From Eledone cirrhosa (Eukaryota), in the NCBI GenBank assembly GCA_964016885.1, contig OZ024743.1, forward strand, positions 89,032,001-89,096,000: DNA of 64,000 nt. Direction: 5' to 3'. Within the stretch, counting starts at the first letter, position 1. Every line of letters starts with the position of its first letter. The notes under the pieces are model-generated. The model was given only the letters and a program-made list of their open reading frames with translations. It did no database searches and had not been told where the DNA came from. Positions 1,166 through 60,243 of this stretch are shown here, one piece after another. The position numbers were made by a program, and so were the translations under genes.

Positions 1166-1503
1166 AGGCACATGGCTTAGTGGTTAGAGCATTGGCCTTG
1201 CAATCGAAAGGTTGTGAGTTCAATTCTCAGACTGGGTGATGTGTTGTTTCCTTGAGCAAGACACTTTATTTCACATTGCTCCAGTTTACTCAGCTGTAGA
1301 AATGAGATGATAGGGACTGGGGTCCATATCATACCACTGCAAAGTGGTTGTGGAGGTGCCACGGCAAAAAAGCACCCAGCACTCACTGTAAATGAGGTTG
1401 GTGTTAGGAAGGGCATCCAGCTGTAGAAATCAAGCCACCATCAGTTCCCGTCCCACCCTTGCAAGCAAGGAAAAAGCGGACGTAAAATGAAATGATGATG
1501 ATA
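1166..1503 (+). mobile_element. tRNA-derived SINE with CORE-like domain and RTE-type tail
   Basis: A box tggcttagtggttag, B box gagttcaattc, ccttgagcaagacacttt...ctccagtttactcagctgtagaaatgag, then the ggtgttaggaagggcatccag...atgatgat tail shared with the RTE copies. Confidence 0.75.
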
Positions 1504-54883: not shown

Positions 54884-54944
54884 GAAATGACTTCTACAGG
54901 ACTAGAACTGTTTCATTCGTATGAAATCATCAGGAATTACACTC
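54884..54944 (-). ncRNA. Type I hammerhead ribozyme
   Basis: Reverse complement GAGUGUAAUUC-CUGAUGA-U-UUC-AUAC-GAA-U-GAAA-CAG-UUCUAGUC-CUG-UA-GAAGUCAUUUC: intact core, stem II UUC/GAA, stem III CAG/CUG, stem I UUC/GAA with imperfect extension. Confidence 0.72.
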
Positions 54945-56931: not shown

Positions 56932-56934
<3 letters not shown>

Positions 56935-57048
56935 AGTTGTAATAAAATGAAAACGAAATTTCATTTCTCACTCTTAGTACGGCACTTACTTAAATGTAAG
57001 TATGTATGTATACGTACATACATATATGTATACAGACGTACAGTAGCA

Positions 57049-57092
<44 letters not shown>

Positions 57093-57563
57093 CAGGTACA
57101 CATACATACATATATGCCGTACTAAGAGTGAGAAATGAAATTTCGTTTTCATTTTATTACAACTTATCGTTTTCGGTACGCCTGGCCGACTGAACTCACT
57201 CGATATGCAAATTAGGCTGCTCAGCCGTTAATTTTCATAAGGAAAGTATATACTTTCGAACGTTCAACCATCTGGCAGAAGGGTATACGGTGCTGATGAT
57301 AGCTAACAAGCTTGAAACTAGTACATCGTTCCTGTGTCAGTGTTGAACAAAAAGGTGACGTGGTTGCCTTAACACCGTACGGCATAAATTCAGGCTGTTC
57401 AGTTTGTTTACAAACGAACAAAGCGGGCGTTATAATAAGCGTCCGCTAAATTGATACGTACATATATGTATGTGTACCTGTATGTATATATGTATATATA
57501 TATATGCAAGCTACTGTACGTCTGTATACATATATGTATGTACGTATACATACATACTTACAT
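56932..57563 (+). mobile_element. Non-coding hammerhead-bearing element with inverted partial copy (retrozyme-like or Penelope-derived)
   Basis: Perfect 53-bp inverted repeat 56932-56984/57115-57167; second inverted pair ~56994-57114/~57461-57563; hammerhead at 57287; embedded in (TA)n. Confidence 0.6.
57287..57329 (+). ncRNA. Minimal type I hammerhead ribozyme (Penelope/retrozyme type)
   Basis: ACGGUG-CUGAUGA-U-AGCU-AACA-AGCU-U-GAAA-CUAG-UA-CAUCGU: intact core, 6-bp stem I (one G-U), 4-bp stem II, palindromic ACUAGU stem III, GUA cleavage triplet. Confidence 0.8.
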
Positions 57564-58222: not shown

Positions 58223-58251
58223 CTCTATATATAAATATATATACAATATAT

Positions 58252-58494
58252 TAACAAATGGAAACTATATTTATAAAACCATATTTATTCTATTATACAT
58301 ATTTCAAGGGCCACCAAGACTATCCAGGAAGCTCCAACCGTTAAGGTTGTCTTTTTTTCAGGGTATGTCAATATTTATTTATAAAACTAATCTGTATTAT
58401 ATTTTATGAATGCGCATCATAATTTGCCTTGGTGGCCCTTAAAATATGTATAATAGAATAAATATGGTTTCATAAATATAGTTTCCATTTGTTA
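58252..58494. mobile_element. MITE/foldback with 67-bp terminal inverted repeats
   Basis: 58252-58318 vs 58428-58494 are reverse complements at 65/67 positions; TA ends. Confidence 0.85.
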
Positions 58495-58657
58495 TCATCA
58501 TCATCATTTTATGTCTGCTTTTCCCTGCTTGCAAGGGTGGGACAGGAACTGATTCTGGCTCGATTTCTACAGCTGGATGCCCTTCCTAACACCAACCTCA
58601 TTTACAGTGAGTGCTGGGTGCTTTTTTGCTGTGGCACCTCCACGACCACTTTACATG

Positions 58658-59719: not shown

Positions 59720-59852
<133 letters not shown>

Positions 59853-59855
59853 GGA

Positions 59856-60243
59856 AAAAATGAAACGAAATTTCATTTCCCACTCTTTGTACGGCTGTTA
59901 CTTAAATATAAGTATGTACACGTACATACATATATGTATACAGACGTACAGTAGTATGTATATATATATACATACATACATGCACACATATATATATATG
60001 TACGTATGGATTCACCGAACATTTATTATAATGCTCGGTGTATTTGTAAACAAACATCCCGTATTAAGCCGTAGTGTCCAGCAACCATCGTTGCTCGTTT
60101 GTTTACAAACACACCGAGCATTATAATAAATGTTCGGTGAATCCATACGTACATATATATATGTGTGCATGTATGTATGTATATATATACATACTACTGT
60201 ACGTCTGTATACATATATGTATGTACGAGTACATACTTATATA
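59856..60243. mobile_element. Second copy of the same family as a ~150-bp-arm foldback
   Basis: Arms 59906-60055 and 60097-60243 are near-perfect reverse complements; shares atgaaacgaaatttcatttc.cactctt.gtacggc and tatacagacgtacagtag with the 56.9-kb element. Confidence 0.75.

What the first reader, a model, noticed from the sequence alone, without database searches (positions are those of the whole stretch)
57422..57447. Hairpin with three compensatory base-pair changes between two copies of the element
Seen: 57422-57447 is AGCGGGCGUU-AUAAUA-AGCGUCCGCU and 60113-60138 is ACCGAGCAUU-AUAAUA-AAUGUUCGGU. The hexaloop is identical and the G.U wobble is at the same position. There are three double substitutions (C-G/G-C, A-U/G-C twice) and one U-A/U.G change, and no difference breaks pairing. 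Both copies follow the motif gtttgtttacaaac. Inference: selection on an RNA (or ssDNA) structure ~90 nt 3' of the ribozyme, perhaps a recognition or priming signal for the helper reverse transcriptase.
Basis: partly seen in the sequence, partly recalled or inferred. Interest (0 to 1): 0.75.

Follow-up and report, generated by a model that had tools for sequence, protein, structure and literature searches.

The report
Compensated hairpin inside a hammerhead retrozyme
The hairpin and its paired base swaps are real and occur in more than 22,000 genomic copies of a small non-coding ribozyme-bearing repeat, where the stem changed step by step while mostly staying paired; it is likely one structural arm of that repeat's folded RNA rather than the place where copying starts.

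Summary
Observation confirmed letter for letter; an identical third copy lies on the minus strand (60014-60039). The hairpin belongs to a 420-470 nt, ORF-poor unit with a minimal type I hammerhead motif, inserted as tandem and inverted arms into (TA)n, with at least 22,459 hairpin copies in this 3 Gb animal genome. The two window copies represent two subfamilies (83% identical). A tree built without the hairpin shows the double changes arose one base at a time, through G·U wobbles and one amplified G·G mismatch lineage (615 copies). Changes shared by amplified lineages keep pairing (12 of 14) more often than private ones (24 of 47). This supports selection on plus-strand RNA structure over one-step palindrome conversion. 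The hairpin is not unique: other helices also covary, and a 60%-identical sister family keeps the predicted fold with a different stem and loop. It is not the priming site: 171 of 192 ends fall at two sites about 100-185 nt downstream. Loop conservation is not significant. No helper element sharing the hairpin was found. Verdict: one helix of a new member of a known class (Penelope-type retrozyme). The scan noted such elements before elsewhere in this genome.

The parts
57422..57447 (+). 10-bp hairpin with hexaloop, subfamily A form (the finding, copy 1)
60113..60138 (+). same hairpin, subfamily B form (copy 2)
60014..60039 (-). third copy, identical to copy 2, in the inverted arm of element 2
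60097..60110 (+). same small hairpin in element 2 (also 60042-60055 on the minus strand)
57287..57329 (+). minimal type I hammerhead motif: short helix I, 4-bp helix II, palindromic helix III; predicted cut after 57323
   Evidence: Rfam hit only sub-threshold (E 0.89); features as in PMC4209133
57117..57560 (+). element 1, forward arm: almost one full unit, ending at end site 1 next to (TA)n
56933..57116 (-). element 1, inverted 5'-truncated arm, ending at end site 2 next to (TA)n
59849..60096 (-). element 2, inverted arm (subfamily B), ending at end site 2
60097..60239 (+). element 2, forward arm, 5'-truncated, ending at end site 1
56987..57002 (-). small stem-loop in which end site 1 falls (seen whole here in the inverted arm)
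57132..57150 (+). stem-loop about 15 nt upstream of end site 2
57205..57212 (+). octamer-like box ATGCAAAT, kept in representatives of families A, B and Z; promoter role not tested

Best explanation
The hairpin is one helix of the predicted whole-unit RNA fold of a high-copy, non-coding hammerhead repeat (a Penelope-type retrozyme), and its stem likely stays paired because only units whose RNA folds well are copied onward, while copying is inferred to start at two other sites 100-185 nt downstream. Shown here: more than 22,000 hairpin copies; tandem and inverted arms in (TA)n; two fixed end sites, one per arm; stepwise stem changes along the tree; and pair-keeping changes enriched in amplified lineages. 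Inferred: the unit is transcribed on the plus strand and perhaps cut by paired hammerheads into linear or circular monomers. It is then reverse-transcribed in trans by a Penelope-like RT-endonuclease that nicks (TA)n and primes once on each strand. Selection acts only on the few source copies during this RNA phase, and inserted copies then decay neutrally. The hairpin's stem sequence is free but its shape is not. That fits a scaffold or stability role more than a sequence-read signal.
For: Genome counts at pair 2: C-G 19,317, G-C 2,361, G·G 615, C·C 166 of 22,459, so 96.5% are paired. At pair 5, G·U 436 against A·C 160. A tree of 129 units built without the hairpin orders B, then the G·G lineage, then restored G-C forms, then A, then a further form with C-G at pair 9. 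Shared against private changes, keep:break: hairpin 12:2 against 24:23 (p=0.03); 52 other pairs 12:7 against 53:114 (p=0.01). Private changes are near-symmetric, G·U 14 and A·C 12. Double changes also occur in hammerhead helix I and in two long-range helices whose arms lie 260-460 columns apart. Plus-strand units fold better than their reverse complements: -166.8/-124.2, -143.7/-121.4 and -160.3/-126.7 kcal/mol. The sister family Z (60% identical) has the same order of predicted helices. Ends: 88 + 83 of 192 at two sites and 0 near the ribozyme cut; 45 of 46 classifiable two-armed insertions use one site per arm.
Against: Pairing is not strict. Lineages with a G·G at pair 2 (615 copies), an A·C at pair 5, and a one-base bulge were each amplified. 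My loci were enriched for hairpin variants by hairpin-pattern searches, which inflates the hairpin's count of shared changes. Subfamily recombination can mimic intermediates. The structure was derived from these same sequences, and the shuffle controls ignore relatedness. In family Z the equivalent hairpin is shorter and less certain (inner pairs 0.6-0.8, outer about 0.4). Transcription, cleavage, circles and the helper enzyme are all undemonstrated. The Rfam hammerhead match is sub-threshold.
Confidence: 0.72

Rival explanations
1. The hairpin, with the small hairpin beside it, is the docking site for the helper Penelope-like protein, placed upstream of the priming sites, as the protein-binding region is inferred to be for the anole Poseidon element.
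For: The hairpin holds 4 of the 9 doubly changed pairs among 89 counted. Its loop and closing pair show no shared change in A/B. The neighbouring small hairpin keeps its loop in family Z. In PAc the RNA needed for activity lies 3' of the hammerhead (PMC11167929).
Against: The loop differs at 3 of 6 bases in Z, and loop constancy in A/B is within chance. Mismatched and bulged stems were amplified. The two-hairpin motif was not seen in the Penelope-like ends or other hammerhead families in the loci held (limited sample).
Confidence: 0.2
2. The hairpin is the reverse-transcription priming site.
For: It sits about 90-100 nt 3' of the hammerhead cut, like the PAc start site in a stem-loop 85-92 nt past its cut.
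Against: 171 of 192 ends lie at two sites well downstream. Of 244 hairpin copies, 21 lack the downstream anchor, and at most 3 of those break off within about 25 nt of the hairpin. Arms use the two downstream sites in 45 of 46 cases.
Confidence: 0.03
3. The symmetry is produced mechanically, by template switching or gene conversion between the two arms of a DNA palindrome, without selection.
For: Short inverted repeats are prone to such correction (general knowledge, recalled). Parsimony put one hairpin change (pair 8, A-U to G-C) on a single branch.
Against: Conversion should perfect the palindrome, yet G·U pairs persist and recur on one strand. Single-sided intermediates exist as multi-locus lineages for pairs 2, 5 and 9. 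Long-range helices also covary.
Confidence: 0.05

Closest known systems
Metazoan non-LTR retrozymes (Cervera and de la Pena 2020, PMC7229834; parts 2-3 of 6 read)
   Same: Short tandem non-coding units with a type I hammerhead, GC under 50%, predicted highly self-paired RNA, thousands of copies.
   Different: The unit is at or above the upper size range given there (150-450 bp). It has Penelope-style inverted arms and two fixed ends, which the parts read do not describe. Expression and circles are not shown here.
Animal retrozymes as non-autonomous PLE derivatives (Li, Clavereau, Pollet 2026, bioRxiv 10.64898/2026.07.22.740005; parts 1-3 of 5 read)
   Same: Hammerhead-bearing tandem units in a genome that also holds Penelope-like elements.
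   Different: There, homology to PLE pLTRs was found; here no homologous pLTR was found in the loci held. The parts read contain no analysis of covariation or end sites.
Penelope-like element pLTR, 'tail' and internal RT initiation (Frangieh et al. 2024, PMC11167929, parts 1-2 of 4 read; Craig et al. 2021, PMC8557442, passages read)
   Same: Inverted 5'-truncated arm, two end sites with a tail on one side, (TA)n targets, ends not at the hammerhead cut, one end site inside a small stem-loop.
   Different: No ORF; the tail is about 60 nt rather than 30-40; the finding's hairpin is not at either start site.
Minimal type I hammerheads of PLEs (Cervera and de la Pena 2014, PMC4209133; part 1 of 4 read)
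   Same: Short helix I, extra base before helix II, palindromic helix III suited to dimeric cleavage.
   Different: Helix II is 4 bp, shorter than the 7-8 bp given for Schistosoma motifs; cleavage is untested.

Membership tests
Metazoan non-LTR retrozyme | Short tandem repeat units of a few hundred bases | tested here: met
   Tandem arrays with 420-520 nt units
Metazoan non-LTR retrozyme | Type I hammerhead motif in each unit | tested here: met
   Core, helices I-III and covarying helix I; Rfam only sub-threshold
Metazoan non-LTR retrozyme | No protein-coding capacity, GC under 50% | tested here: met
   In array L015 the longest ATG ORF inside the units is 70 aa, and 46 aa on the ribozyme strand, low-complexity; GC 37-38%
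Metazoan non-LTR retrozyme | Highly self-paired predicted RNA | tested here: met
   (prediction plus covariation only)
Metazoan non-LTR retrozyme | Transcribed, self-cleaving, accumulates as circular RNA | not testable with these tools
   Needs RNA data and a cleavage assay
Non-autonomous Penelope-like element | Inverted 5'-truncated arm and a tail at one end only | tested here: met
   45 of 46 classifiable two-armed insertions have one end of each kind; 12 more of 58 were unclassifiable
Non-autonomous Penelope-like element | Insertion into microsatellites, (TA)n | tested here: met
   Ends at both sites run into (TA)n in the great majority of listed rows
Non-autonomous Penelope-like element | Sequence shared with the pLTR of an autonomous PLE in the same genome | tested here: inconclusive
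   Six PLE endonuclease regions beside fetched loci have different hammerheads and ends; no genome-wide PLE survey was done
PLE RT-initiation stem-loop (PAc type) | Insertion ends map to the stem-loop | tested here: not met
   Ends are about 100-185 nt downstream of this hairpin; site 1 falls in a different small stem-loop
Known Rfam RNA family | Covariance-model match at gathering score over the hairpin | tested here: not met

The most novel reading that the evidence does not exclude
The pair of adjacent hairpins is a shape-read docking module for the Penelope-like RT, set 100-185 nt upstream of two strand-specific priming sites. The genome's 22,000 copies record a near-complete, ordered walk of compensatory RNA evolution through wobble and mismatch intermediates, with copy number as a fitness read-out.
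Probability: 0.2. Interest if true: 0.65.

Novelty: new member of a known kind. Interest (0 to 1): 0.38.

Why it matters
It gives sequence evidence that an animal retrozyme is selected on its RNA fold, which the papers read infer only from energy predictions. It also offers a large natural series in which the intermediates of compensatory base-pair change survive as countable lineages, including a mismatch lineage of 615 copies. And it narrows where the helper enzyme starts: two downstream sites, one per arm, not this hairpin. The class of element, its Penelope link and internal initiation are already known.

Tried and rejected
RNA evidence: no RNA holder listed. Laying contigs of four runs gave only copies in organism A's two runs and nothing in the other two, which proves nothing. 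Rfam: no family at gathering score over the element; sub-threshold miRNA hits are (TA)-rich noise. Helper search: PLE endonuclease pieces with a CX2-5CxxC-type linker lie beside six fetched regions, but their hammerheads and ends differ from this unit. One of them has the same hexamer in a short AT-rich stem about 100 nt after its hammerhead (L051), but close relatives L129 and L137 do not keep the pairing, so I treat it as chance. A pattern for hammerheads with another helix II returned 9 matches, most of them decayed forms of this family's motif by their letters; I did not examine their loci one by one. Pfam gave no hit for the PLE pieces. SECIS was considered and rejected by inspection: no AUGA/GA quartet (recalled definition) and no ORF. 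A helix-by-helix table of A, B and Z was not made, so the correspondence with family Z rests on the folds and alignment only. Literature searches listed no paper on this family or on covariation in animal retrozymes; the library is incomplete and supplements, including Repbase-type lists, were not seen.

Full report
Observation. The two hairpins are exactly where and as described: 7 of 20 stem bases differ, all 10 pairs are kept, and the loop and the pair-6 wobble are identical. Both fold far better than shuffles (z -5.3 and -4.2). Seven random stem changes would keep all pairs about 0.4% of the time. A third copy, identical to the second, lies on the minus strand at 60014-60039. On the minus strand the wobbles become A·C mismatches and folding is weaker, with RNA and with DNA energies, so the informative strand is the one that carries the hammerhead.

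What it sits in. Copy 1 lies in a unit with a minimal type I hammerhead motif at 57287-57329. The motif has the short helix I, extra base before helix II and palindromic helix III described for Penelope-like elements (PMC4209133, part 1 of 4 read); Rfam gives only a sub-threshold hit. The unit occurs at 98-99% identity in many places, often as tandem arrays of about 466 nt and with inverted arms. Copy 2 belongs to a second subfamily, B, of about 420-435 nt that carries the same hammerhead in full units; A and B are 83% identical. A degenerate pattern for the hairpin has 22,459 exact matches and 0 in the reversed control. The unit has no meaningful ORF and 37-38% GC. This matches non-LTR retrozymes (PMC7229834, parts 2-3 of 6 read), recently argued to be non-autonomous PLE derivatives (bioRxiv 10.64898/2026.07.22.740005, parts 1-3 of 5 read; the lead came from earlier notes). 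The inverted arm and one-sided tail are PLE hallmarks (PMC8557442, passages read).

Is the compensation real? At pair 2 the genome holds C-G 19,317, G-C 2,361, G·G 615 and C·C 166; at pair 5, G·U 436 and A·C 160. A tree of 129 units built without the hairpin places B-type stems at the base, then a G·G lineage, then restored G-C forms, then A, then a form in which pair 9 has gone from U-A through U·G to C-G. Parsimony on 127 of these (2 dropped because the hairpin was missing or garbled) gives keep:break counts. For changes shared by three or more loci against private ones, the hairpin shows 12:2 against 24:23 (p=0.03), and 52 other pairs show 12:7 against 53:114 (p=0.01). 'Keep' includes restoring a mismatch, and overlapping loci may have been counted apart. 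In a separate count over 245 hairpin copies from 202 loci (143 independent regions), private stem changes kept pairing in 18 of 49 cases, with G·U 14 and A·C 12 (7 haplotypes skipped), as expected for neutral decay after insertion. Against this: mismatch and bulge lineages were amplified, my sample was enriched for hairpin variants, and recombination between subfamilies could mimic intermediates. One-step palindrome conversion does not explain single-sided intermediates, persistent one-strand wobbles, or covariation in long-range helices.

Is the hairpin special? In an 18-unit alignment it holds 4 of 9 doubly changed pairs among 89 pairs in 13 helices, so it is the fastest-changing helix that stays paired, but not the only one. 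Hammerhead helix I and two long-range helices also covary. A sister family Z, found beside one locus, has about 500 search candidates and is 60% identical. It has the same order of predicted helices. Its equivalent hairpin has a different, shorter, less certain stem and the loop AGUAAA instead of AUAAUA, while the small upstream hairpin keeps its loop. Within A/B the hexaloop shows no shared change, but neither do 58 of 291 six-base windows, so loop conservation is not evidence of sequence-specific recognition.

Is it the priming site? Of 280 anchored segments, 88 run on into the next unit and 192 end. Of those 192, 88 end at site 1, 83 at site 2 about 60 nt further on, and none within 15 nt of the ribozyme cut. 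In the window, site 1 is 113 and 101 nt after the hairpin. Site 1 falls in a different small stem-loop and site 2 about 15 nt after another. Of 244 hairpin copies, 21 lack the downstream anchor, mostly ending in the internal (TA)n run, and at most 3 break off right after the hairpin. In 45 of 46 classifiable two-armed insertions one arm ends at each site (12 more of 58 unclassifiable); both window elements follow this.

Helper. PLE endonuclease pieces lie next to six fetched regions, share (TA)n targets, and in two cases (L051, L137) show a similar 60-nt tail. Their hammerheads and ends differ in sequence and lack the two-hairpin motif. The helper is therefore unidentified, and a recognition role is neither shown nor excluded.

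Mechanism and verdict. Most likely (0.72), plus-strand RNA of source copies folds into a conserved multi-helix structure and is perhaps processed by dimeric hammerheads (inferred). It is then copied by a PLE RT-endonuclease that primes at two downstream sites (ends shown, enzyme inferred). Lineages whose stem stays paired propagate preferentially (pattern shown, selection inferred). Docking site 0.2, mechanical conversion 0.05, priming site 0.03. Six literature searches listed no description of this family or of covariation in animal retrozymes; supplements were not seen. New member of a known kind; interest 0.38.

Noticed in passing
L004:890-1310 (+); L178-L202: Sister family Z, 466-nt tandem hammerhead unit, 60% identical to A, with the same predicted architecture and ends at the two equivalent sites; helix II differs between Z copies by a paired change.
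   Followed up: partly
L152, L153: A third, 310-nt tandem hammerhead family with inverted arm, inserted in the same (TA)n tract as an A copy.
   Followed up: no
   Followed up: partly
L011:2566-3345 (-); L070/L129, L137, L039, L050/L051, L018: Penelope-like ORF ends (GIY-YIG with a CX2-5CxxC-type linker) with their own hammerheads and two end sites about 60 nt apart, next to retrozyme copies in shared (TA)n tracts.
   Followed up: partly
window 58250-58495: Another inverted-arm repeat resembling the short hammerhead-tail modules seen in L039, L054, L079 and L171; the hammerhead core looks decayed here.
   Followed up: no
window 54933 (-) and 1171-1234 (+): A further hammerhead-core-like match at 54933 and a tRNA-like, probably SINE-derived, match at 1171-1234.
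   Followed up: no
window 22000-44000: A 22-kb block of uniform composition (GC about 29%, AT skew about +0.19), suggesting a satellite array.
   Followed up: no
L121: An 11-unit head-to-head array (3 inverted plus 8 forward hairpin copies) whose inversion point lies inside the small upstream hairpin.
   Followed up: no
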